In this document: positions 1 to 9,512 of the stretch, piece after piece
How positions within the stretch are numbered: position 1 is the first letter of the stretch
Layout of the letters: each line of letters begins with the position of its first letter
Origin: Dictyostelium discoideum
Taxonomy: Eukaryota
Reading direction: 5' to 3'
Length of the DNA stretch: 9,512 nt
NCBI GenBank assembly: GCA_000004695.1
Contig: CH709158.1
Location: 1-9,512 of the forward strand
Made by a program: the position numbers and the translations under genes
Notes under the pieces: generated by a model
What the model was told of the DNA's origin: nothing
The model's input: only the letters and a program-made list of their open reading frames with translations
Database searches by the model: none

Positions 1-230
1 GCATATTACATTACTAATTATAGTTGACACACATTTAAATAATATAATAATAATAATAATAATAATAATACTGTCGACTCATTATGAATAATATAAATAC
101 TAAAGAATAATTTTATAAACAATATTGAATATTATAAATATAAATTAATATTAAATAAAGATAACAAAGTATTATTCAATTATATAATTATTAATTATAT
201 ATATTTATAAAGCTAACAAGCTTTATTACA
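1..230 (+). repeat. 5' LTR (partial), ending with ATTACA.
   Basis: Near-identical to 4772..4998. The only differences are one G/A SNP (pos 76 vs 4846) and one extra AAT unit in the (AAT)n tract 46..70. Confidence 0.9.
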
Positions 231-232
231 TT

Positions 233-249
233 TGGCGACATCGTCTTTC
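233..249 (+). promoter_or_regulatory. Candidate primer binding site (TGGCGACATCGTCTTTC), 2-3 nt after the 5' LTR end.
   Basis: It begins with TGG, complementary to the tRNA 3' CCA, and sits immediately 3' of the LTR terminus ATTACA. I could not identify the cognate tRNA from memory. Confidence 0.45.
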
Positions 250-250
250 A

Positions 251-343
251 AAAAAAAAAAAAAAAAAAAATATACTATAAATATAAAGTTATCAAATTAT
301 TCAATCAATTAAAATTTTACATTAGATTAAATTTAATTTAATA

Positions 344-430
<87 letters not shown>
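251..430 (+). repeat. Oligo(dA)-rich leader of the retroelement.
   Basis: A-runs at 251..271 and 351..429. The second is about 80 nt of nearly pure A interrupted by g/ttt. Confidence 0.8.
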
Positions 431-431
<1 letters not shown>

Positions 432-605
432 TTTTTTATGAAAACCGTATTTTTTTCGGGTAATGGAAAGGGTTAATCATTCTTTAATTTCAACCACTAA
501 CTCTTATTAATTCATGGCGAGGAAATATCGAAAGCTGATATTATTAGAAAACTAAGAAACAATGCATTGGAATATGCCGCAACATTGGATACAGACTTAA
601 CAGCA

Positions 606-3600
606 ATGGAGATAATTGAAGATCTTAAAGATGCTTTTGATATTGGTGATAGTGATGATTTATCAGATTTAACAAAGTTAGGAGAATATAAATACAATAC
701 ATTAGATATATTAATTGGTAAATTTCTTTCAAAATGTTCAGCAGTTGATATTTCAGAAAAGTTTAAAATACAATTGTTTTATTCAGCTGTTGGTATTGAA
801 TTGGGTATTGAAATTACAAAATGTGCACCAAAATCATTAAAAAGAGCAATAGACATTGCAAAGTCTTGTGAAGATGGTTCAATTCGTATGAGAGGTAGAT
901 CAATGTATACTGGTCAATTGGTTGCAAAAACATTACAAGAATTTGGAACTCAAAAGTATCTTGGTTCTGGATCTGGTTATACAACATCACCACAGTACGT
1001 TACATCTCAAACTGAACAATCTACTGAAACTGAAGTATTAGCAACTCCAATTTATAAAAATCAAACATATTCACCACCACCATCACCTTATAAAGCACCA
1101 CAAAATCAAGTAAATTCAATCACAAAATTTTGTAAATATTGCAAAAAGAAAGGTCATGTAATTCAAGAGTGTTGGTCTAAAGATAAAAAGAATAATTATA
1201 ATGAGAATAAACAATCATATAATAATCATAGCACTAATGCAATTACAATGGTTAATGATAAAACGATTAATTCTATTGGAACTGATAGTATGAATGCAGC
1301 ATTATTAATAAATGATAAGAATGTTAGAGGTTTAGTTGATACTGGTTCTTCTCTTACCATCATTTGGGAAAGTATTGCTAAAAAATTAAATTTAAAAGTT
1401 GAAGGTAAATCATTTTCAGTTAATTCAGCATCAAATAATGAAATTAAGATAGTTGGTAGTTGTGATACCATAATTAAATTAGGTAAAGCATCCGCAAAAG
1501 TTAATGTTAATATTGTTAAAGATAATGATACTTCAATCGATTGCATTTTTGGTGTAGATACACTTATTGGATTGAAATTAATAATTGATTGCAAGGAAAT
1601 GATCATTAAGAATCTTGAATTTAATGTTGGTACAAGATTAATCACCAGAGAAACCAAACCAATTGTTTGCAAAATTGATCTAAATATATTAGAAAAAGTA
1701 TCAAAACCAATGGCTGAGTTATTAATCAAAAATGAAGAGATTTTTGAAACCAAATTGTCAAAACCAGGATCATTAATAGATGTTGAACATTCAATTAAAT
1801 TAACTGATGAAAATGTTTCTGTTTATACTCCACCATACAAAACTAGTCCAGCTGATAAAGAATTCATTGAAGAATACATTAAAGATGCATTAGATAAAGG
1901 TATAATCGAGAAATCAGATTCATCACAATACGGTTCTCCAATAGTCTTATCCAGAAAGAATGATAAAATTAGATTTTGTGTTAATTATAAAAAACTAAAT
2001 GACCTCACAATTAAAGATAGATATCCACTTCCATTAATTTCTGATTGTTGGTATTATCTCAAAGATGCAAAAGTTTTCTCAAAAATTGATCTTACTTCTG
2101 GTTATTATCAAATCAAAATGAAAGAAGAGGACAAGGATAAAACAACCTTTGTCTCTCATATGGGTCAATTTAGATATGTTGTAATGCCATTTGGATTATG
2201 TAATGCACCAGCAACTTTTCAAAGATACATGAATGAATTATTAAAGGATGAATTAAGAAAAAGTAATATTGGGTTTATTGACGATTGTATAATTTATAGC
2301 AAGAATAATGAATATCATATTGAACATGTCAAACTATTATTCGAAAAATTCAAAGAAAAAGGTGCAAAGTTACAAATAACTAAATGTGAGTTTGAAAAAG
2401 AAGAGATCAAGTTTTTGGGATATATCGTTTCAAAGAATGGTATTACTTATGATAGTTCAAAGTTTAATGAATTATTAAAAACACCACCTCCATCAAATCA
2501 AAAAGAATTAATGAAATTACTCGGTACTGTCAATTACTTTAGAACATTCATTAAAAATTTCACTCATTTAACTTCATCATTTTATCCACTATTAAAGAAG
2601 GGTGTTAATTTCAAATGGACTGATGAATTGGAAAATGATCGTGTAAAATTATTTACTACATTAGCACAAACTAATCTTTTAAGTTTTCCACAAGATACAG
2701 ATGATAATGTTATTGAAACTGATGCTTCAATTATTGGTATTGGTGGTGTAATGATTCAAAATGGTAAACCAGTTTCTTATTATTCAAGAACATTAAACAA
2801 CGCTGAAAAGAATTATTCTGTTACTGAAAGAGAATGTTTGGCAATCATTGAATCAATTAAATATTTTAAATCCTATATCAATGGTAGAAAAGTAAAAATC
2901 ATCACTGATCATCAACCTTTGAAATATCTCTTAACTGGTAAATTTACTGATCGTATTACAAGATGGACTGTATTACTTCAAGAGTATAATTACGAAATTA
3001 TATATAGACCTGGTAAAGAAAACTTTTTAGCTGATGCATTATCAAGATGTCCAGATAGAGATCAACAGCCAATTGATTGTGATATTCCAGAAAAGATATT
3101 TACAATTACTCACTATCCAGTAGCTTCACCATCAACTACAATTTTACCAAGAGTCTTACCATCAAGATCAAATCAAACATCTAATGTTTCACCAGCTACA
3201 ACAATTCAACCACCAAATTCATCAAGTTCAAATCAATCATCAAATATCCCACCAACAACAAACCAATCATCAAATATTACAAATCAACCAATAAATACTT
3301 CATCAATGAATTTAAATCAATCATTATCAAATCAAGCAACAACCGCTAGATTATTGAATAGTGTACCTATCTCAATCAACAATGATAATATTAATACAAC
3401 AACTCCACAATTTACACAAGAGTCAATAAGAAAAGAGTTGGAAAAAGAAAATTATTATAGAGCAATGTATAAATATCTTGAAGAAACAAGACTTCCAGAC
3501 AATGCACAAGCAGCAAGAAGAATTTTGTTCGAGTCTGAATTTTATTCAATGATTAATGGATTTCTTTGTCACGGTTTAAAACATACTTTATCAAGTAAGA

Positions 3601-4718
3601 AATCTCATTTTAAACATCTTCAAATTGTAGTTCCAAAAACTATGACTAAATGGATAATGGAAATATTTCATGATTCGCCACTTACTGGAGGACATTTTGG
3701 ATTATTAAAAACTGTCGCAAAAATCAAAGAAAGATTCTATTGGATTGGTATGATTAAGGATATAAAAGAATTTATCGATAAATGTACAACTTGTTTACAA
3801 ATTAAAAGAAAGTATGGTCCAAAAGAAGGTTTACTCATTCCAATTGAGATTGAACCTGAACCATTTAATACAATTGGTATTGATTTTATTGGTCCAATTA
3901 CAAAAGATAATGCTCAAGTTTATTTGTTGGTTGTTATGGATTATTTTACTAAATGGCCAGAAGTTTTCTTTACCCTTGATATGGAAGGGGAGACTGTAGC
4001 TCAATTATTGTTGTATGAAATCTATACTAGATATGGGGTTCCAAAGAAGTTGGTTTCTGATCGTGGTAAGAATTTTTTAAGTAATGTAGTCTCTGGTGTT
4101 AATAAATTATTCGGTGTTCACAAATTAACAACTACTGCTTATCACCCACAATGTGATGGTCAAACTGAAAATTTCAATAATACATTAATTAAGATGCTCA
4201 AAGCTTTTATTGGTAATGAATTGTATGGCAATTGGGGTGAATTATTAAGATGTGTTTTATACTCATACAGAATTACACCACATGTTTCAACTGGTTTTTC
4301 ACCCTTTTTCTTACTTTTTAATCGTCAACCAACTTTACCATTAGATACAACTTTAAATGTAAATTTTTATTCAAATTCACTAAGATTAGATTTCGCTGAT
4401 AATTATGCACAATCCGTAAATAATAATCTTAAACGTGCCTTTTGGTTTACAAAGAATAATCTCGATAAAGCTCAAGAATTACAAAAAACAAATTATGATA
4501 AAGGTCGTCGTCCAACAAATATTCAAACAGGTGATTTTGTTTATTTACATACACCATATTCACAAACTTCTATTGGTCCAAAGAAATTCTATAAACCTTG
4601 GAGAGGTCCTTTTAAAGTTCAAGAAAAAGTTAGCGATGTTACATTCAAATTAGATATGGGTAATCTTAGAGATCATAAAGTAGTCAATATTGAAAGATTG
4701 AAAAAAATTTTCAACTAA
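606..4718 (+). CDS. Gag-Pol polyprotein of the LTR retrotransposon. The frame is open from 501 and the ORF-track start is TTG 567.
   Basis: First in-frame ATG at 606 and TAA stop at 4716..4718. There are no internal stops or frameshifts between the gag and pol parts. Confidence 0.9.
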   Translation: MEIIEDLKDAFDIGDSDDLSDLTKLGEYKYNTLDILIGKFLSKCSAVDISEKFKIQLFYSAVGIELGIEITKCAPKSLKRAIDIAKSCEDGSIRMRGRSMYTGQLVAKTLQEFGTQKYLGSGSGYTTSPQYVTSQTEQSTETEVLATPIYKNQTYSPPPSPYKAPQNQVNSITKFCKYCKKKGHVIQECWSKDKKNNYNENKQSYNNHSTNAITMVNDKTINSIGTDSMNAALLINDKNVRGLVDTGSSLTIIWESIAKKLNLKVEGKSFSVNSASNNEIKIVGSCDTIIKLGKASAKVNVNIVKDNDTSIDCIFGVDTLIGLKLIIDCKEMIIKNLEFNVGTRLITRETKPIVCKIDLNILEKVSKPMAELLIKNEEIFETKLSKPGSLIDVEHSIKLTDENVSVYTPPYKTSPADKEFIEEYIKDALDKGIIEKSDSSQYGSPIVLSRKNDKIRFCVNYKKLNDLTIKDRYPLPLISDCWYYLKDAKVFSKIDLTSGYYQIKMKEEDKDKTTFVSHMGQFRYVVMPFGLCNAPATFQRYMNELLKDELRKSNIGFIDDCIIYSKNNEYHIEHVKLLFEKFKEKGAKLQITKCEFEKEEIKFLGYIVSKNGITYDSSKFNELLKTPPPSNQKELMKLLGTVNYFRTFIKNFTHLTSSFYPLLKKGVNFKWTDELENDRVKLFTTLAQTNLLSFPQDTDDNVIETDASIIGIGGVMIQNGKPVSYYSRTLNNAEKNYSVTERECLAIIESIKYFKSYINGRKVKIITDHQPLKYLLTGKFTDRITRWTVLLQEYNYEIIYRPGKENFLADALSRCPDRDQQPIDCDIPEKIFTITHYPVASPSTTILPRVLPSRSNQTSNVSPATTIQPPNSSSSNQSSNIPPTTNQSSNITNQPINTSSMNLNQSLSNQATTARLLNSVPISINNDNINTTTPQFTQESIRKELEKENYYRAMYKYLEETRLPDNAQAARRILFESEFYSMINGFLCHGLKHTLSSKKSHFKHLQIVVPKTMTKWIMEIFHDSPLTGGHFGLLKTVAKIKERFYWIGMIKDIKEFIDKCTTCLQIKRKYGPKEGLLIPIEIEPEPFNTIGIDFIGPITKDNAQVYLLVVMDYFTKWPEVFFTLDMEGETVAQLLLYEIYTRYGVPKKLVSDRGKNFLSNVVSGVNKLFGVHKLTTTAYHPQCDGQTENFNNTLIKMLKAFIGNELYGNWGELLRCVLYSYRITPHVSTGFSPFFLLFNRQPTLPLDTTLNVNFYSNSLRLDFADNYAQSVNNNLKRAFWFTKNNLDKAQELQKTNYDKGRRPTNIQTGDFVYLHTPYSQTSIGPKKFYKPWRGPFKVQEKVSDVTFKLDMGNLRDHKVVNIERLKKIFN
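1131..1172 (+). other. Gag CCHC zinc knuckle (CKYCKKKGHVIQEC).
   Basis: C-X2-C-X4-H-X4-C pattern at aa 189-202 of the ORF. Confidence 0.85.
1284..1601 (+). other. Aspartic protease domain, with active site LVDTGSS (DTG at 1338..1346).
   Basis: Retropepsin D-T-G-S motif followed by the hydrophobic stretch IIW, plus a later GVDTLIGL-like flap region. Confidence 0.85.
1749..2441 (+). other. Reverse transcriptase domain.
   Basis: Motif A KIDLTSGYYQI, the PFGL.NAP motif, and FIDD (a YXDD variant) at 2274..2285. Confidence 0.9.
2679..2936 (+). other. RNase H domain.
   Basis: IETDASIIGIGGV (catalytic D at 2721), TERECLAI (E around 2826) and ITDHQPL (D at 2907), in typical Ty3/gypsy RH arrangement. 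Confidence 0.85.
3117..3416 (+). other. S/T/N/Q/P-rich low-complexity linker between RNase H and integrase.
   Basis: About 100 aa (aa 851-950) dominated by S, T, N, Q and P, with SSNQSSNI-type repeats. Confidence 0.8.
3669..3794 (+). other. Integrase N-terminal HHCC zinc-binding domain.
   Basis: H1035, H1043, C1073 and C1076 (HDSPLTGGH...CTTC). Confidence 0.85.
3849..4346 (+). other. Integrase DDE catalytic core.
   Basis: D at 3882 (IGIDFIG), D at 4059 (LVSDRGKNF) and E at 4167 (GQTENFN). Confidence 0.85.
4524..4715 (+). other. Integrase C-terminal GPF/Y module. There is no chromodomain.
   Basis: WRGPFKV...HKVVNIERLK matches the GPY/F motif. It lacks the aromatic-cage spacing of chromodomains. 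Confidence 0.7.
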
Positions 4719-4730
4719 AAGGGGGGGATA
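4717..4730 (+). promoter_or_regulatory. Polypurine tract (AAAAGGGGGGGATA) abutting the 3' LTR.
   Basis: A pure purine run overlaps the stop codon and is directly followed by the LTR start TGTAAT at 4731. Confidence 0.85.
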
Positions 4731-4998
4731 TGTAATAAAGTTACTCTATAAAATTAATAGATATTAAATATGCATATTACATTACTAATTATAGTTGACA
4801 CACATTTAAATAATATAATAATAATAATAATAATAATACTGTCAACTCATTATGAATAATATAAATACTAAAGAATAATTTTATAAACAATATTGAATAT
4901 TATAAATATAAATTAATATTAAATAAAGATAACAAAGTATTATTCAATTATATAATTATTAATTATATATATTTATAAAGCTAACAAGCTTTATTACA
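4731..4998 (+). repeat. 3' LTR (TGTAAT...ATTACA).
   Basis: It matches the 5' LTR. The 6-bp terminal inverted repeats are TGTAAT and ATTACA, and it contains (AAT)7 at 4817..4838. Confidence 0.9.
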
Positions 4999-5452
4999 TT
5001 TTGAAATATTTTTGAAATATTTTTGCACCATTACGTTTTATTTCCATTCCAAAAAAAAAAAACGTTTTATTTTTCATTGGGAAGAAACTAATAATTGTGT
5101 TATCCAATTCAAAAAAGTATTTTTCATTTAAATTATTTTTTTTATATAATTCTACAGTATTTCATGAATGTTCATTTTTATTCTTTATTATTTTTTTTTT
5201 TTTAATTTTTAATTTTTTTTTTTTTTTTTTTTGAAAATTAAAATCAAAACCAAGATATTTTTTTTTTTTTCTTCCCTTATTTTTTTTTTTTTATTTTTAT
5301 AACTATTCTTTAATAGAATTCTTTTTTTAAAAAAAAAGAACACCATGGAAGCTTTTTTGTTTTTTTTTTAAAAATGGATATAAATTATTATTTTTTTTTT
5401 TTAAAAAAATAAAACAAGATAATATCCAAAAATAAATAAAACAGAAAAAAAA

Positions 5453-5968
5453 ATGCCTCCAAAGATTAAAATAATTACAGGTCCAATCGGTTCTGGAAAA
5501 ACAACAATTTTAAATAGAATCAAAGAGTCATATGAAAGAAAAGAAATCTTTATTGGTCAAAAGGTTGGATTTTTTGGTGAACCTACTGATTCCACTGTAG
5601 CTAATGCTCTCCTAAAGGATATGTACTCAAAGTTTCCATTTGCTAATGATCAGTTTGAAACTTTACAAAAATACCTAATGGCTGTGGAAGCTAATGATTT
5701 ATGTAATGCTTTGTCATCGTCAGAGTATGATATTGTTTACTTTGATACATCGGTTTTGTATGGAGTTGTATTTTTACAAACTGCTAATGATTTGAAAATC
5801 ATAAACAATCAAACCTATTCAAATTGTCTAACGTTTTACTATCAAATGATTTCAAATATTAATTTCGAAAATGCTGAAGTAACCAATTTAAAAGTCATAC
5901 CACACATAGGTGTATGGAGCAAATTAACCAAAGAGGTAGAGCCTTTGAAGTCGGTAGTTTATCTATAG
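5453..5968 (+). CDS. P-loop kinase-like protein, possibly a deoxynucleoside or nucleotide kinase family member. The reading frame appears interrupted.
   Basis: Walker A motif GPIGSGKTT at 5480..5506, then a GEP motif about 27 aa later and an FDTS motif reminiscent of dNK ERS. AAAAATG start context. Dictyostelium-like codon usage. Confidence 0.5.
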   Translation: MPPKIKIITGPIGSGKTTILNRIKESYERKEIFIGQKVGFFGEPTDSTVANALLKDMYSKFPFANDQFETLQKYLMAVEANDLCNALSSSEYDIVYFDTSVLYGVVFLQTANDLKIINNQTYSNCLTFYYQMISNINFENAEVTNLKVIPHIGVWSKLTKEVEPLKSVVYL

Positions 5969-6059
5969 ACTATGTTTCCAAATTAACCGATAAAATTCGA
6001 TCTCATTGTGTTAGCCAAGTTTATCAAGACTTGAAAAACCAATAAAATGCTGTATCCAT

Positions 6060-6239
6060 AGAGAATACAAAAGCAATGATGACCTGTTCAATGACATTTT
6101 CTTTAATGAAAATCCAAACTCAATTCCCACACCATCAAATACTCTAACTCAATCTCTTCAAAGTTCACACTCAAATCTTAGTTTTTATTACCCATCGAAT
6201 CAAGAGCAATATTTTAATATTCAAGATTATTTGAATTAA
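6060..6239 (+). CDS. Possible 3' part of the same kinase-like gene in a different frame (REYKSNDDLFNDIFFNENPNSIPTPSNTL...QDYLN*), reached via an intermediate segment 5968..6047.
   Basis: Coding-like, less AT-rich sequence continues to TAA 6237..6239 in frame 0. The segment 5968..6047 is open in frame 1 (DYVSKLTDKIRSHCVSQVYQDLKNQ). No AT-rich GT..AG introns were recognisable between the pieces. Confidence 0.3.
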   Translation, partial: REYKSNDDLFNDIFFNENPNSIPTPSNTLTQSLQSSHSNLSFYYPSNQEQYFNIQDYLN

Positions 6240-6321
6240 TAAAACTAAATTCTAAATAATACTATAAAAAAAAAAAAAAAAAATAAAAATATATTTAAAT
6301 TAAATAAAAAAAGAAAAAAAA

Positions 6322-6507
6322 ATGTCTACATTTGCCGATCTTCGTTCTGTTTCAGGTGGCTTACTAGGTGGTATGGGTAGTATTGGTGTTGCCGCTCTTG
6401 GTGCCTACTTTATTTATACAAGTGAAATTGGAAGCGTTGATTTCAATATGGGTGTTGGTTTTGCTGCCTTTGGTTGTCTCTTAGTCTCAGATCATTATTC
6501 AAAATAA
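6322..6507 (+). CDS. Small glycine-rich hydrophobic protein (61 aa), a putative membrane micro-protein.
   Basis: AAAAATG start context. The product carries GxxxG-like repeats (GGLLGGMGSIGVAALGAYF, GVGFAAFGCLLV). GC content is higher than the flanks. Confidence 0.45.
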   Translation: MSTFADLRSVSGGLLGGMGSIGVAALGAYFIYTSEIGSVDFNMGVGFAAFGCLLVSDHYSK

Positions 6508-6666
6508 AAATGATTAAAGAAAAATGATTAAAAGAAAAAAAAATAAAATAAAAATTTTTAAGATAACTAGATTTCAATGATTTTTTTTTCAATTATTATT
6601 TATCAAAATTATTTATTTATTTAAAATAAAAACAAAAATAGTTGATGGTTTTATTTGTTTTTTTCT

Positions 6667-6918
6667 TCATTTTCTTTTGGCACATAATCTAACAACTTTT
6701 CCATCTATATACTGAAGATTTGTTAATAATTCAGTTCTTTCTTTAAAACGATTTTTTTTTACGATTTTTTCTTTACAGTCAGCTGTACATACACAAGGTT
6801 CAAACTTGGGGAATTCATCTGGATCTGTTAATAGCCACATGTATTTACTCTTTTTTTCCTCAGCTTCTTCAATGGATAAATTTGAATGTGGGCACTTATT
6901 AGTAGTTCTTTCTTCCAT
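6667..6918 (-). CDS. Hypothetical 83-aa protein with a CPH...CVC..C cysteine cluster and a basic C-terminus.
   Basis: Clean ATG..TGA ORF on the minus strand with Dictyostelium-like codon usage. The coding-like composition contrasts with the AT-rich flanks. Confidence 0.45.
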   Translation of the reverse strand: MEERTTNKCPHSNLSIEEAEEKKSKYMWLLTDPDEFPKFEPCVCTADCKEKIVKKNRFKERTELLTNLQYIDGKVVRLCAKRK

Positions 6919-7167
6919 TATTTAAGTTGTAACTATAAATATGTTTGTGCGATAATGTTTTATTTTTAATGTTAGTAAAATAAGTATTAAAAAAAAATTA
7001 AATTATTATTTAAAAAAAATAGAAAAAAACTGTGGGTGTGGTGTTTTAATGATTCCAAAAAAAAAAAAAATCAATAATAAAATAAAAAATTTTATAAATA
7101 AAATCTTTAATCTTTTTTAAATTAACTCTTATATAATTATTTTGTAAATGGTTATTTCAAAATTAGA

Positions 7168-7415
7168 CCTAATGATCATGAGACCCTACGCTCTACCAAT
7201 TGTGCCAACCCGACATGTTGATATTTTTTGACAAAAAATGCTCAATCTGGTGTTATCCAATTCAAAAAAAAAAAGTTTCTTAATGATTTACCTTAGGATT
7301 ATGAGACCTGCACTATACCAACTTAACCAAACTGATATGTTGATATTTTTCCTTAGAAAAATGACTAACCAGATATTTTTTAATGTTGAAAAACTCAACC
7401 ATCTGGAATTCAAAA
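7168..7415 (-). repeat. Degenerate tandem duplication of two ~123-bp units, each carrying a tRNA-Met-like fragment covering the D-arm and a CAT anticodon arm.
   Basis: Minus-strand reads GGCACAATTGGTAGAGCGTAGGGTCTCATGATC (7168..7217) and GGTTAAGTTGGTATAGTGCAGGTCTCATAATCCTAAGG (7291..7334). Each is followed on the + strand by a shared GATATGTTGATATTTTT and a CTCAA..CTGG..TTCAAAAAAAA motif. No T-arm or acceptor 3' half is present. Confidence 0.6.
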
Positions 7416-7498
7416 AAAATTATAACCTTTACATCAACACCCCAAAAATTGAGGCTAATTCAATACCAACTACATAAGGTTAAGTTTAAAACAAAATA

Positions 7499-7545
7499 AT
7501 AAAAATTAATAATAATAATATTAACAATAATAATAAGAAATAAAA
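7499..7545. repeat. AAT/ATA-rich microsatellite-like tract.
   Basis: Imperfect (AAT)n: aataataaaaattaataataataatattaacaataataataag. Confidence 0.6.
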
Positions 7546-8249
7546 AAAATTTATTAAAAAACAATATCAAAACTCTGAGGCTTTGGGTTATATTATGGAA
7601 TTTCTTTTGGCAAAAAGAAAAAAAAAAAAAAAAATAAAATTCTAAGAAAAACTTACATAATTTAGAATAAGTAATTAAGAGATAATAGATAACACTATAT
7701 GTATGTTTTAGTGTAAAATTTCTTTTATAACCTTTAATTAAAATTTTTATTTTTCTCACCATTTTTCGTTTTTTCAAAAAAACTTAAAATGCATAATTTG
7801 GATAGTCTTTATTTGAAAGTAAAAAACCAGGAATGATAAGAAAAATAAAAATTTAAAATAAAGATTATAAAAAATAATTAACACACCAAAACATACCATA
7901 TGTTATTTATTATCTCTTAATTATTTACTTAATCTAATAGATATTCTAACAAAACATTTAAAAATAATTAGTTATGAAATACAAATATATGAATTAAATA
8001 TATGTTTAGAAATAAAACAAATAATTAAAACAAATAAAAGATTTATTATTGTTATGGAAATTGTAAAATAAAAACTGATGTTAGTCTCATTACAATTATG
8101 GGCGATGGTTTTTGCTAATAAAATTTAATAAGGCTTTAAAACTTTTTTTTTTTTTTTACATCTCTTTAAAAATTCCAATTTTCTTGCAACTTTCTTCCAA
8201 ATTTTAAGAAAGGTGATCATTTCCAGTATTTAAAATAAATTTCCATCAA

Positions 8250-8323
8250 GCCTTAGTAGCTCAGTTGGTACGAGCGTGAGACTGAAGATCTTAAGGTCGC
8301 TGGTTCGATCCCGGCCTGAGGCA
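8250..8323 (+). tRNA. tRNA-Phe (anticodon GAA).
   Basis: Acceptor GCCTTAG/CTGAGGC plus discriminator A. D-arm GCTC-AGTTGGTAC-GAGC. Anticodon loop CTGAAGA. T-arm GCTGG-TTCGATC-CCGGC (B box GGTTCGATCC). No encoded CCA. Confidence 0.9.
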
Positions 8324-8327
8324 AATA

Positions 8328-8333
8328 TTTTTT
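8328..8333 (+). terminator. Pol III oligo(dT) terminator.
   Basis: TTTTTT begins 5 nt after the tRNA 3' end. Confidence 0.75.
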
Positions 8334-8393
8334 GATGGTTTTCCAATGGCTGATGATCACTCCGCCGAAAAGACACAGTCTGATCACAGGTAA

Positions 8394-9071
8394 AAAAAAA
8401 AAAAAAAAAAGTTAAATCATACAGATAACAACACAACCAATACAAATAATACCTCCACAACCTCAACAACAAAAAACGAAAGTGCAAAAATCGACACACC
8501 TAAAAAACAAACCCTAACAAACCAACTCTCACTAAACAAAGGACTTGATAATCAATTAGATATCATTGCACCTCCATCAATCACAAGACCACTCTCCTTC
8601 TTAGAAAAAAACAATAACACCATCAACATTAAGTGTTACTTTAATCAACCACACATCCATGAAGAATTAACCTCTAAAGATGACACAAGAATCCAACAAA
8701 TTCACAAAAATATTCACAAACTCTTCGAAGATATACTGTCGCCATCAGCATTTAAAATAATTGGTGCAACAGCCTTGGTAAATTGCAACGTTGATAAATT
8801 AACTTCAATAATCAACCTTCAAAACCAACTTGCACTAAATATAGACAAACTCAACTATAGATTCGATATATCATCAAATGATTATGCAACCATTAAAACA
8901 TTCATTAAAACGTACTCACCCAAACATGCAAACGATGCAATTATAAACAACCTCACTAAATTCACCAGTTGTACATCAATTGAATCATTTACTGTCACAT
9001 ACTCATATGCTGTTGCGTTTAAAAGCTACATTATAACATATCATCTAATTGATCACACACAACATTGTTGA
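8394..9071 (+). CDS. Open frame without an ATG inside an A+C-rich, T-poor block. It is candidate ORF sequence of a tRNA-gene-associated repetitive element (TRE3-like) or a 5'-incomplete gene.
   Basis: Frame 0 is open from the TAA at 8391..8393 to the TGA at 9072..9074, about 226 codons. There is no in-frame ATG. It starts with poly-K from a 19-nt A-run. Strong strand asymmetry (A about 50%, C about 25-30%, very few T) begins abruptly at 8411, 88 bp after the tRNA end. Confidence 0.35.
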   Translation, partial: KKKKKKLNHTDNNTTNTNNTSTTSTTKNESAKIDTPKKQTLTNQLSLNKGLDNQLDIIAPPSITRPLSFLEKNNNTINIKCYFNQPHIHEELTSKDDTRIQQIHKNIHKLFEDILSPSAFKIIGATALVNCNVDKLTSIINLQNQLALNIDKLNYRFDISSNDYATIKTFIKTYSPKHANDAIINNLTKFTSCTSIESFTVTYSYAVAFKSYIITYHLIDHTQHC

Positions 9072-9369
9072 TCAAAAGATCGAACAACCATCTGGTATCA
9101 CAAGATATATCAAAGCTGCAACACGTAGTGTCACTAAACACAAAATTCAACATGCAAAAAATGCAGATATGGCAACAACTATAAAAAATGCTCTCACAAA
9201 CCCAAATATTAACAAAAACTATCAACCACCAAAAAACAACATTAACACCCCACCAATCAACGAAATTGCAAATTCCAATCGCAATAATAACCCACTTCAA
9301 AATAGTGGTTCAAAAGCTACACTAAATGAATCACTTAATAATAACGGGAAAAACTCATTATCAATGTGA
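9049..9369 (+). CDS. Overlapping downstream ORF in frame +1 (N/P/Q-rich, 106 aa) within the same A+C-rich block.
   Basis: ATG at 9049 and TGA at 9367..9369. It overlaps the upstream frame by 23 nt. This layout fits either an ORF1/ORF2-type overlap or a frameshifted pseudo-ORF. Confidence 0.25.
   Translation: MITHNIVDQKIEQPSGITRYIKAATRSVTKHKIQHAKNADMATTIKNALTNPNINKNYQPPKNNINTPPINEIANSNRNNNPLQNSGSKATLNESLNNNGKNSLSM
9230..9345 (+). repeat. Left arm of a large imperfect inverted repeat (palindrome).
   Basis: The reverse complement of 9238..9345 matches 9398..9505 at about 92% identity. The mismatches are gaaccactattttgaag vs gaacaactatttggaag, gggtt vs gggct, and tgcg vs tgtg. Confidence 0.85.
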
Positions 9370-9397
9370 GATTTCATTATTGTTTTGGGATTGATTG

Positions 9398-9512
9398 TTA
9401 TTATTAAGTGATTCATTTAGTGTAGCTTTTGAACAACTATTTGGAAGTGGGCTATTATTGTGATTGGAATTTGCAATTTCGTTGATTGGTGGGGTGTTAA
9501 TGCTGCTTTTTG
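9398..9512 (-). repeat. Right arm of the inverted repeat. It runs to the window end.
   Basis: gttattattaagtgattcatttagtgtagcttttgaac... is the reverse complement of ...gttcaaaagctacactaaatgaatcacttaataataac. The spacer is 9346..9397. Confidence 0.85.

What the first reader, a model, noticed from the sequence alone, without database searches (positions are those of the whole stretch)
9230..9512. Large imperfect palindrome: tail-to-tail inverted duplication of the A/C-rich element with a 52-bp spacer
Arms of at least 115 bp (9238..9345 vs 9398..9505, about 92% identical) continue to the window edge. The sequence after 9398 is therefore the reverse complement of the upstream element read backwards. 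This also explains the mirrored minus-strand ORF 9031..9300. Such palindromes can arise from template switching during reverse transcription, from nested or inverted insertions, or from hairpin-mediated rearrangement. They are fragile, recombinogenic structures and are often misassembled.
Basis: seen in the sequence. Interest (0 to 1): 0.6.

Follow-up and report, generated by a model that had tools for sequence, protein, structure and literature searches.

The report
Inverted pair of truncated TRE3 retrotransposons
The palindrome is real: two different, 3'-truncated copies of the front end of the Dictyostelium TRE3 retrotransposon are joined tail to tail just downstream of a tRNA-Phe gene, which is an ordinary transposon rearrangement scar that could make a long hairpin RNA if transcribed.

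Summary
Arms 9230-9345 and 9397-9512 are 116 nt long, 95% complementary and 51 nt apart (DNA fold z = -23.5).

The window appears to be a complete 9512-bp Dictyostelium discoideum AX4 record that ends inside the right arm. A second assembly (L001) carries the whole structure: 934-bp arms, 97% identical, with the same centre.

The "A/C-rich element" is the ORF1 (gag) region of a TRE3 non-LTR retrotransposon.
- The left copy (L) starts about 20 nt after tRNA-Phe, in the same orientation, as TRE3 normally does.
- The right copy (R) is inverted, reaches the canonical TRE3 5' end and has no tRNA gene beside it.
- Both copies lack everything 3' of ORF1 nt ~1000-1047.
- The "spacer" is TRE3 sequence: 21 nt from L plus 30 nt from R, with a 2-nt junction overlap.

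The arms are not a fresh duplication. They differ as much as any two family copies (2.9% against 2.7-3.3%), and 5 of the 27 mismatches are polymorphisms shared with other copies.

My preferred origin (confidence about 0.45) is reverse transcription of a TRE3 RNA primed from a broken end inside L. The main rival is two convergent insertions followed by a deletion.

Interest is modest. This is a new example of a known kind.

The parts
8250..8323 (+). tRNA-Phe(GAA) gene, the RNA polymerase III gene that the left TRE3 copy sits behind.
   Evidence: ARAGORN. Rfam tRNA hit, 62.5 bits.
8344..8362 (+). First piece of the left TRE3 copy (L): ORF1 start (CAATGGCTGATGATCACTC, ORF1 nt about -2 to 17). It begins about 20 nt after the tRNA, and the roughly 140-nt 5'UTR is absent.
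   Evidence: Alignments with canonical copies and with the Logan consensus.
8363..8410 (+). 48-nt foreign insert in L (CGCCGAAAAGACACAGTCTGATCACAGGT + A19). It replaces ORF1 nt 18-29 and matches the ORF2 end / A-run of a different TRE-type element at L004 5084-5145.
   Evidence: Motif search and blastn. The L004 segment encodes a distant TRE3 ORF2 relative (29% identity, E = 3e-10).
8412..9345 (+). Left arm: TRE3 ORF1 nt 31-966, sense strand. It is frameshifted by a 2-nt deletion near 9053. The part paired within the window is 9230-9345.
   Evidence: 96% protein identity to Gag Q9Y1H6/AAD43056.1. Inverted-repeat coordinates. Alignment.
9346..9366 (+). Segment D: GGGAAAAACTCATTATCAATG = TRE3 ORF1 nt 1027-1047, still in L orientation. 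ORF1 nt 967-1026 (60 nt) are deleted in L between two AATAATAAC repeats.
   Evidence: Alignment with canonical copies. Consensus coordinates.
9365..9366 (.). Junction between the two copies. The TG here can be assigned to either copy (2-nt microhomology).
   Evidence: Read directly from the sequence against the consensus.
9367..9396 (-). Segment B': the reverse complement of TRE3 ORF1 nt 967-996/998 (AATCAATCCC...TCTCA[CA]). It is the inner end of the right copy (R).
   Evidence: Minus-strand frame reads ...NNNQSQNNNEISH.
9397..9512 (-). Right arm (R), in-window part: TRE3 ORF1 antisense on the + strand. In L001 it continues to ORF1 nt 31 (window-equivalent about 10330), the ATG (about 10360) and the canonical 5' terminus GAAAAAAAACGAAAC (L001 12721, window-equivalent about 10509).

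Best explanation
What it is (shown): a quasi-palindrome of about 2.17 kb built from two different copies of the 5' part of a TRE3 non-LTR retrotransposon of Dictyostelium discoideum. Copy L lies about 20 nt downstream of tRNA-Phe in the tRNA's orientation, which is the normal TRE3 position. It is cut off at ORF1 nt 1047. Copy R is inverted, runs from ORF1 nt about 998 out to the canonical TRE3 5' terminus, and has no tRNA gene, poly(A) tail or 3' part. The 51-nt 'spacer' is leftover TRE3 sequence from both copies.

How it arose (inferred): L was an ordinary tRNA-targeted insertion that later suffered a break near ORF1 nt 1047. The exposed 3' end of its sense strand primed reverse transcription on a TRE3 RNA from another copy. 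Priming used only a 2-nt match, about 50 nt out of register. The cDNA ran off at the RNA's 5' end and was joined to the DNA on the far side of the break. L's 3' 4 kb was lost. This is an endonuclease-independent, break-repair style of insertion, and it resembles half of a twin-priming event.

What it does: it has no demonstrated function. If it is transcribed from R's 5'UTR, the RNA would fold into a hairpin with a stem of about 914 bp.
For: Identity: ORF1 is 96% identical to D. discoideum Gag Q9Y1H6. Canonical copies carry Exo_endo_phos and RVT_1 domains and sit behind tRNA-Met and tRNA-Thr. [quoted passage not shown]

R matches the published criteria for endonuclease-independent L1 insertions, namely 3' truncation, no poly(A) tail and no target-site duplication, together with target deletion (PMC1920257):
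- It is 3'-truncated with no poly(A).
- A candidate target-site duplication is not significant (163 of 2000 controls score as well).
- The junction has 2-nt microhomology.
- L's 3' part is missing.
- An AT-rich tandem (TTTTGATAT)n lies at R's outer junction.

R ends at the canonical 5' terminus shared with three other copies, as run-off on an RNA template would give. No tRNA-like sequence lies next to R.

The arms derive from different sources. There are 27 mismatches in 934 nt: 10 private to L, 12 private to R, and 5 at sites where both states occur in other copies. Pairwise distance equals family-wide distance.

Both truncation points lie within about 50 nt of each other in a 5.2-kb element. 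That argues for one templated event rather than random breaks.

The family shows other marks of RT template jumping: the chimeric 48-nt insert in L and a 5'-end/3'-end fused mini-copy at about L004 10025-10085.
Against: No empty or intermediate site could be recovered, so a post-insertion deletion cannot be excluded. PMC1920257 itself warns that such deletions mimic this architecture.

The TRE3 copy in L003 has a clean 10-nt target-site duplication (TCATCATTTC) and no tRNA gene nearby. R could therefore be an ordinary in-situ insertion.

L and R share 3 substitutions seen in no other sampled copy, and a 2-nt deletion shared with one other copy. They may therefore be closer relatives than 'independent' implies, but only 5 other sequences were compared.

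The 60-nt deletion in L, 21 nt from the junction, needs an extra template jump or a separate event.

Break-primed retrotransposition has not been shown in Dictyostelium. Which arm primed which cannot be decided.
Confidence: 0.45

Rival explanations
1. Two independent TRE3 insertions in convergent orientation: L behind tRNA-Phe, and R inserted in place at a non-tRNA site. One or more later deletions, perhaps driven by hairpin or cruciform instability of the long inverted repeat, removed both 3' parts and the DNA between them. A roughly 1-kb quasi-palindrome stabilised by a 51-nt asymmetric centre was left behind.
For: The arms look like separate family members. R has a complete canonical 5' terminus, as a full-length insertion would. 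TRE3 can insert away from tRNA genes with a normal target-site duplication (L003 copy), and only 60 of the 67 TRE3-A copies in PMC5006619 Table 1 have a tRNA distance listed. The spacer consists of unequal leftovers of both arms, as an asymmetric central deletion would leave. The 2-nt junction overlap fits end joining.
Against: It needs at least three or four events: two insertions, a large deletion and the 60-nt deletion. The two breakpoints fall within about 50 nt of the same element position out of 5.2 kb, which is unlikely for a random deletion unless hairpin-guided. After resection the two 3' tails are both sense strand, so they cannot anneal in register. No remnant of either 3' end, poly(A) tail or target-site duplication survives.
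Confidence: 0.33
2. DNA-level fold-back (hairpin-primed or replication template-switch) inverted duplication of a single TRE3 copy. The two arms then diverged, and gene conversion with other copies followed.
For: The truncation points are nearly symmetric with short microhomology, which is typical of fold-back inversions. L and R uniquely share 3 substitutions, two of them next to the centre.
Against: R carries about 140 nt of 5'UTR that L lacks. R stops at the element terminus instead of continuing into an inverted tRNA-Phe flank. L has a 48-nt insert and a 60-nt deletion that are absent from R. The arms are no closer to each other than to unrelated copies, and at 4-5 sites each arm carries a state shared with other copies.
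Confidence: 0.1
3. Assembly artefact: a chimeric or collapsed join of reads from two dispersed TRE3 copies at the end of a Sanger contig.
For: The window ends inside a repeat. Its last 60 nt carry 3 bases (9452, 9503, 9506) that disagree with the second assembly and with all other copies.
Against: A separate assembly places the same centre, 100% identical over 8330-9400, in the middle of a 4.89-Mb contig with unique DNA on both sides. The arms differ at 27 sites, which a fold-back read artefact would not produce.
Confidence: 0.02

Closest known systems
TRE3 tRNA-gene-targeted non-LTR retrotransposons of D. discoideum (TRE3-A/B type; ORF1 = GenBank AAD43056.1)
   Same: Both arms are TRE3 ORF1 sequence, 96% identical at protein level. 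L has the canonical position and orientation behind a tRNA gene.
   Different: Neither copy has ORF2, a 3'UTR or a poly(A) tail. R is inverted and not next to a tRNA gene. Non-LTR elements are normally 5'-truncated, not 3'-truncated. The subfamily (A or B) was not resolved here.
Endonuclease-independent (non-classical) L1 insertions at DNA breaks (Sen et al. 2007, PMC1920257)
   Same: 3' truncation, no poly(A) tail, no target-site duplication, loss of target DNA, a short microhomology, and AT-rich simple repeats at a junction.
   Different: Here the 'target' is another copy of the same element, hit almost in register, so the result is a palindrome. The pre-insertion site is unknown. The host and element family are different.
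L1 twin priming (5' truncation/inversion)
   Same: An inverted segment arises because a second DNA 3' end primes internally on the element RNA.
   Different: Twin priming joins two different, adjacent parts of one RNA and keeps the poly(A) tail and target-site duplications. Here both arms cover the same region (ORF1 nt 31-966), and there is no poly(A) or target-site duplication.
Hairpin-forming transposon fragments proposed as small-RNA sources: the partial Skipper fragment in D. discoideum (Hinas et al. 2007, PMC2175303); maize Mu killer (from my own knowledge)
   Same: An inverted repeat of a retroelement fragment that could give a long fold-back RNA. TRE3-A small RNAs exist in D. discoideum (PMC6161686). 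The predicted transcript pairs 914 of 934 arm positions.
   Different: No transcription or small-RNA data were examined for this locus. The Skipper hairpin has a stem of about 320 bp and a loop of about 900 nt; this one has a 934-bp stem and a 51-nt loop.

Membership tests
TRE3 non-LTR retrotransposon | ORF1 (gag-like) sequence of the family. | tested here: met
   96% identity over 99% of the query to Gag Q9Y1H6. DNA is 97% identical to copies that continue into an Exo_endo_phos/RVT_1 ORF2.
TRE3 non-LTR retrotransposon | Sits 14-228 bp downstream of a tRNA gene, in the same transcriptional orientation. | tested here: met
   Met for L: the tRNA-Phe gene ends at 8323 and L starts at 8344, both on the + strand. 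Not met for R: no tRNA or tRNA-like hit within 500 bp.
TRE3 non-LTR retrotransposon | Intact 3' end with poly(A) tail and flanking target-site duplication (the signature of target-primed reverse transcription). | tested here: not met
   Both copies end at ORF1 nt about 998-1047. The candidate target-site duplication is not above background (163 of 2000 controls).
Fold-back inverted duplication (true DNA palindrome) | One arm is a copy of the other, including its outer flank, and the arms are each other's closest relatives. | tested here: not met
   The outer ends differ: R has a 5'UTR, while L has tRNA flank plus the chimeric insert. L-R distance is 2.89%, against 2.68-3.32% for the other pairs. 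Five mismatches are polymorphisms shared with other copies.
L1-type twin-priming inversion | An inverted 5' segment abuts a direct 3' segment with poly(A). The two segments cover different parts of the element, and target-site duplications are present. | tested here: not met
   Both arms cover ORF1 nt 31-966. There is no poly(A) tail and no target-site duplication.
Endonuclease-independent / break-primed non-LTR insertion | 3' truncation, no poly(A) tail and no target-site duplication. | tested here: met
   R meets all three. The criteria are those of PMC1920257.
Endonuclease-independent / break-primed non-LTR insertion | The reconstructed pre-insertion site shows that the 3' truncation is original rather than a later deletion. 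| not testable with these tools
   Attempts to fetch the orthologous locus returned only paralogous loci (L005, L006) or nothing. The Nek-kinase search was swamped by unrelated kinases.
Hairpin-RNA (siRNA-generating) transposon locus | A read-through transcript exists, and about 21-nt small RNAs map to both arms and the loop. | not testable with these tools
   Only the folding potential could be computed. The literature reports TRE3-A small RNAs but not their locus of origin.

The most novel reading that the evidence does not exclude
The locus acts as a natural hairpin-RNA gene against TRE3. Transcription starting in R's intact 5'UTR would read through R (sense) into L (antisense). This would give a double-stranded RNA of about 930 bp that Dicer processes into the TRE3-A small RNAs reported in D. 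discoideum. It would be a 'Mu killer'-like self-made silencer, created by a retrotransposon-mediated break repair.
Probability: 0.15. Interest if true: 0.6.

Novelty: new member of a known kind. Interest (0 to 1): 0.3.

Why it matters
- Reference genome: the palindrome explains why this 9.5-kb AX4 contig ends where it does and probably why it stayed a short separate record. It can now be anchored inside a 4.89-Mb contig of a newer assembly.
- Retrotransposon biology: a 3'-truncated TRE3 copy that is complete at its 5' end is a candidate footprint of break-primed (endonuclease-independent) reverse transcription in an amoebozoan. So far this process has been documented mainly for mammalian L1.
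- Annotation: two gene models in the newer assembly (P0002 and P0004) are built on the two arms, and one is spliced across the tRNA-Phe gene. They should be treated as transposon fragments.
- RNA silencing: if the locus is transcribed, it is an obvious candidate source of TRE3 small RNAs.

Tried and rejected
- Target-site duplication. The left flank (ATTTTTTGATGGTTT) resembles the right flank (ATTTTTGATAGTTT), but 8% of control AT-rich intergenic stretches score as well. Rejected.
- Orthologous or empty site. Look-ups via the neighbouring dNK-like gene returned paralogous loci only (L005, L006). Exact look-ups of window ORFs and AX4 proteins found nothing. The last protein search, with the Nek kinase right of R, was flooded by unrelated kinases and did not return the Dictyostelium orthologues.
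- Metagenome scans for the junction and for a conserved arm segment gave 0 hits.
- Degenerate tRNA next to R or next to the L003 copy: none at E <= 1.
- Twin priming, nested insertion of one copy into the other, inversion between two copies, and break-induced copying from an ectopic DNA donor were all considered. They were rejected on geometry: they predict a poly(A) tail, the other half of a split element, or an inverted tRNA flank next to R. None of these is present.
- Subfamily assignment (TRE3-A or TRE3-B) could not be made. Glockner et al. 2001 is not held, and accession searches found nothing.
- A first alignment of the outer flanks was made in the wrong orientation and redone.

Full report
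**Observation.** The inverted repeat is present as described. The arms are 9230-9345 and 9397-9512: 116 nt, 110 matches (95%), 51 nt apart, and the right arm runs to the last base of the window. As single-stranded DNA the 283 nt fold into one hairpin at -117.3 kcal/mol. Shuffled controls give -26.1 +/- 3.9 (z = -23.5).

**Source and setting.** The window is Dictyostelium discoideum. It appears to be an entire 9512-bp AX4 record, because the longest contig on record for the AX4 protein DDB_G0294238, encoded at 5453-6240, is 9512 bp. From left to right it contains:
- A Ty3/gypsy LTR retrotransposon with the DGLT-A layout (1-5001; 1383-aa ORF; 271-bp LTRs).
- A few small genes.
- tRNA-Phe(GAA) at 8250-8323 on the + strand.
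- The A/C-rich element.

**What the A/C-rich element is.** A conceptual translation of 8411-9345, with one frameshift repaired, is 96% identical to D. discoideum 'Gag' Q9Y1H6/AAD43056.1. The same DNA, at 97% identity, forms the 5' part of elements that continue into an ORF2 with Exo_endo_phos and RVT_1 domains. These sit behind tRNA-Met (L001) and tRNA-Thr (L004) in the tRNA's orientation. This is the TRE3 family of tRNA-gene-targeted non-LTR retrotransposons. [quoted passage not shown] I could not decide between subfamilies A and B.

**The whole structure.** Protein P0002 led to locus L001 (GCA_054883475.1, contig JBTAPE010000033.1, 4.89 Mb). L001 covers the entire window at 98.9% identity, is identical from 1852 to 9451, and continues beyond the window's end. 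In L001 the palindrome has 934-nt arms (10624-11557 and 11609-12542) that are 97% complementary, with the same 51-nt centre. Window 8330-9400 is 100% identical to L001. The centre is therefore supported by two assemblies. In the second it lies deep inside a multi-megabase contig with unique genes on both sides. It is not an artefact.

**Anatomy.** Coordinates are ORF1 nucleotides on the Logan consensus L007.
- *Left copy L (+ strand).* It starts at 8344, about 20 nt after the tRNA, with ORF1 nt -2 to 17. It has no 5'UTR. Next comes a 48-nt foreign piece (8363-8410). L then continues with ORF1 nt 30-966 (8411-9345), skips nt 967-1026 (60 nt, between two AATAATAAC repeats), and ends with nt 1027-1047 (9346-9366).
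- *Right copy R (- strand).* It starts at the junction with ORF1 nt 996/998 (9367-9396 is the reverse complement of nt 967-996). It runs outward through the arm, the ATG and about 140 nt of 5'UTR. It ends at GAAAAAAAACGAAAC (L001 12721), which is the same 5' terminus as in three other copies.
- *Junction.* The TG at 9365-9366 fits either copy.

The '51-nt spacer' is therefore not foreign DNA. It consists of 21 nt of L plus 30 nt of R. Both copies are truncated within about 50 nt of the same element position and lack the remaining roughly 4 kb, including any poly(A) tail.

**Are the arms a duplication?** The evidence says no.
- The arms differ at 27 of 934 positions (2.89%). The nine other pairwise comparisons among five genomic copies give 2.68-3.32%.
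- Against five other sequences, including two consensus contigs, 10 differences are private to L and 12 are private to R. Five lie at sites where both states occur in other copies (8526, 8867, 8907, 8944, 8957). Point mutation after a duplication would not produce that pattern.
- The outer ends also differ. R has the 5'UTR and then unrelated DNA. L has the tRNA flank, the chimeric insert and no 5'UTR.
- A fold-back copy of L would have carried an inverted tRNA-Phe, and none is present.
- Against full independence, L and R share three substitutions seen in no other sampled copy (8597, 9337, 9341) and a 2-nt deletion also found in the L004 copy. They may belong to the same sub-lineage. The sample of copies is small.

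**Mechanism.** Three classes of origin remain.

(1) *Break-primed reverse transcription, my preferred model.* L was a normal tRNA-targeted insertion. A break near nt 1047 exposed a 3' end that primed cDNA synthesis on a TRE3 RNA from another copy. The cDNA ran to the RNA's 5' end and was joined to the far side of the break. This explains several features in one event:
- R's inverted orientation.
- R's 3' truncation without a poly(A) tail.
- R's exact canonical 5' terminus.
- The missing tRNA gene next to R.
- The lack of a target-site duplication (candidate not significant, 163 of 2000 controls).
- The 2-nt overlap at the junction.
- The loss of L's 3' part.
- The sequence difference between the arms.

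These are the criteria used for endonuclease-independent L1 insertions, which are also associated with target deletions and AT-rich simple repeats at junctions (PMC1920257). An AT-rich (TTTTGATAT)n run lies at R's outer junction. Template jumping is visible elsewhere in this family. The 48-nt insert in L matches the ORF2 end of a different TRE-type element, and L004 holds a mini-copy in which the TRE3 5' end is fused to the 3' end.

(2) *Two convergent insertions followed by deletion.* This is plausible because the L003 copy shows that TRE3 can insert away from any tRNA gene with a clean target-site duplication, TCATCATTTC. It needs more events, and it has to explain breakpoints only about 50 nt apart in element coordinates. 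PMC1920257 notes that such deletions mimic the break-primed architecture unless the pre-insertion site is known, and here it is not known.

(3) *DNA fold-back duplication.* This is disfavoured by the outer-end structure and by the shared polymorphisms.

I put these at about 0.45, 0.33 and 0.10, and assembly artefact at 0.02.

**Function.** None is demonstrated.
- *Computed here.* A transcript starting at R's 5' terminus and reading through would pair 914 of the 934 arm positions with their mirror partners (-1586 kcal/mol).
- *From the literature.* D. discoideum makes TRE3-A small RNAs (PMC6161686). A partial Skipper fragment with a stem of about 320 bp was proposed as the source of Skipper small RNAs (PMC2175303).

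Whether this locus is transcribed was not testable here.

**Side claim.** The minus-strand ORF 9031-9300 lies inside the left arm, antisense to ORF1. It is not a product of the palindrome. The mirror-image coding frame is on the minus strand of 9397-9512.

**Verdict.** This is a real, well-defined rearrangement of a known transposon family. It is ordinary in kind, with one mildly interesting mechanistic reading and one speculative functional reading.

Noticed in passing
window 1-5001: An LTR retrotransposon with the DGLT-A layout: a single 1383-aa uninterrupted ORF (567-4718) and 271-bp LTRs, with the left one cut by the contig start. In L001 its left LTR starts 14 bp upstream of a tRNA-Met gene and the gene model is 1437 aa with protease/RT/RNaseH/integrase domains. 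One review states that all D. discoideum DGLT-A copies are incomplete (PMC5633606), so an apparently intact ORF is worth a look.
   Followed up: partly
window 250-1085: Almost all differences between the window and L001 (about 95 of 103 differing columns) are packed into the 5' part of the DGLT-A copy. Positions 1852-9451 are identical. This suggests either a mosaic or consensus assembly of the repeat in one record, or gene conversion.
   Followed up: no
window 8363-8410: [quoted passage not shown] The insert is 48 nt (CGCCGAAAAGACACAG/TCTGATCACAGGT + A19). It matches the ORF2 end and A-run of a different TRE-type element (L004 5084-5145), minus an 18-nt hairpin-forming stretch, and it replaces ORF1 nt 18-29. 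This looks like reverse-transcriptase template switching between RNAs of two subfamilies.
   Followed up: partly
window 7668-7927: A second, weaker inverted repeat lies about 320-580 nt upstream of tRNA-Phe: 107-nt arms, 77% complementary, 46-nt loop. As RNA it folds at -74.8 kcal/mol (z = -11.0). It has no Rfam match and no copy in the other loci fetched. The gene model P0002 starts in its loop. It could be a MITE-like element or a hairpin-RNA precursor.
   Followed up: partly
window 9452, 9503, 9506: The window has C at three right-arm positions where L001 has T. The L001 bases agree with the left arm and with all other TRE3 copies. These are probably low-quality bases at the end of the Sanger contig, which makes the in-window arm identity 95% rather than about 97%.
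   Followed up: partly
window 5407-6622 (gene 5453-6240, DDB_G0294238): The deoxynucleoside-kinase-like gene lies in a 1.2-1.4-kb segment that recurs at about 94% DNA identity at unrelated loci in other D. discoideum and D. cf. discoideum assemblies (L005, L006). Many paralogous proteins exist. It is a dispersed repeat or a young gene family.
   Followed up: partly
window about 9053 (also R and the L004 copy): A 2-nt (CA) deletion that frameshifts ORF1 is shared by L, R and the L004 copy. It is absent from the consensus and from the tRNA-Met and L003 copies. It marks a defective sub-lineage that nevertheless spread.
   Followed up: partly
L003 5857-12247: A TRE3 copy with a complete 5' terminus, a poly(A) tail and a 10-nt target-site duplication (TCATCATTTC). 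No tRNA or tRNA-like sequence lies nearby; it sits about 70 bp from a polyketide-synthase gene. It is an exception to the tRNA-targeting rule.
   Followed up: partly
L004 about 10025-10190: Directly after the poly(A) tail of a TRE3 copy lies a mini-element in which the TRE3 5' terminus (AAAAAAAAACCGAAACAAAGAAATA) is fused to the 3' terminus (GTTTATTTTATATC + poly(A)). It is followed by a near-perfect palindrome of about 100 nt whose arms contain a B-box-like GGTTCGACTCC motif.
   Followed up: no
L001 10001-11537 and 11573-12572: The two annotated 'hypothetical protein' genes of GCA_054883475.1 (ACTFIT_003714 and ACTFIT_003729; P0002 and P0004) are built on the two palindrome arms. P0002 is spliced from the upstream hairpin loop across the tRNA-Phe gene into TRE3 ORF1. 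They are likely annotation artefacts.
   Followed up: partly
L001 12722-12790: Immediately outside R's 5' terminus there is an AT-rich tandem array of about 70 nt, (TTTTGATAT)n. It may be original intergenic DNA or filler created at the junction.
   Followed up: no
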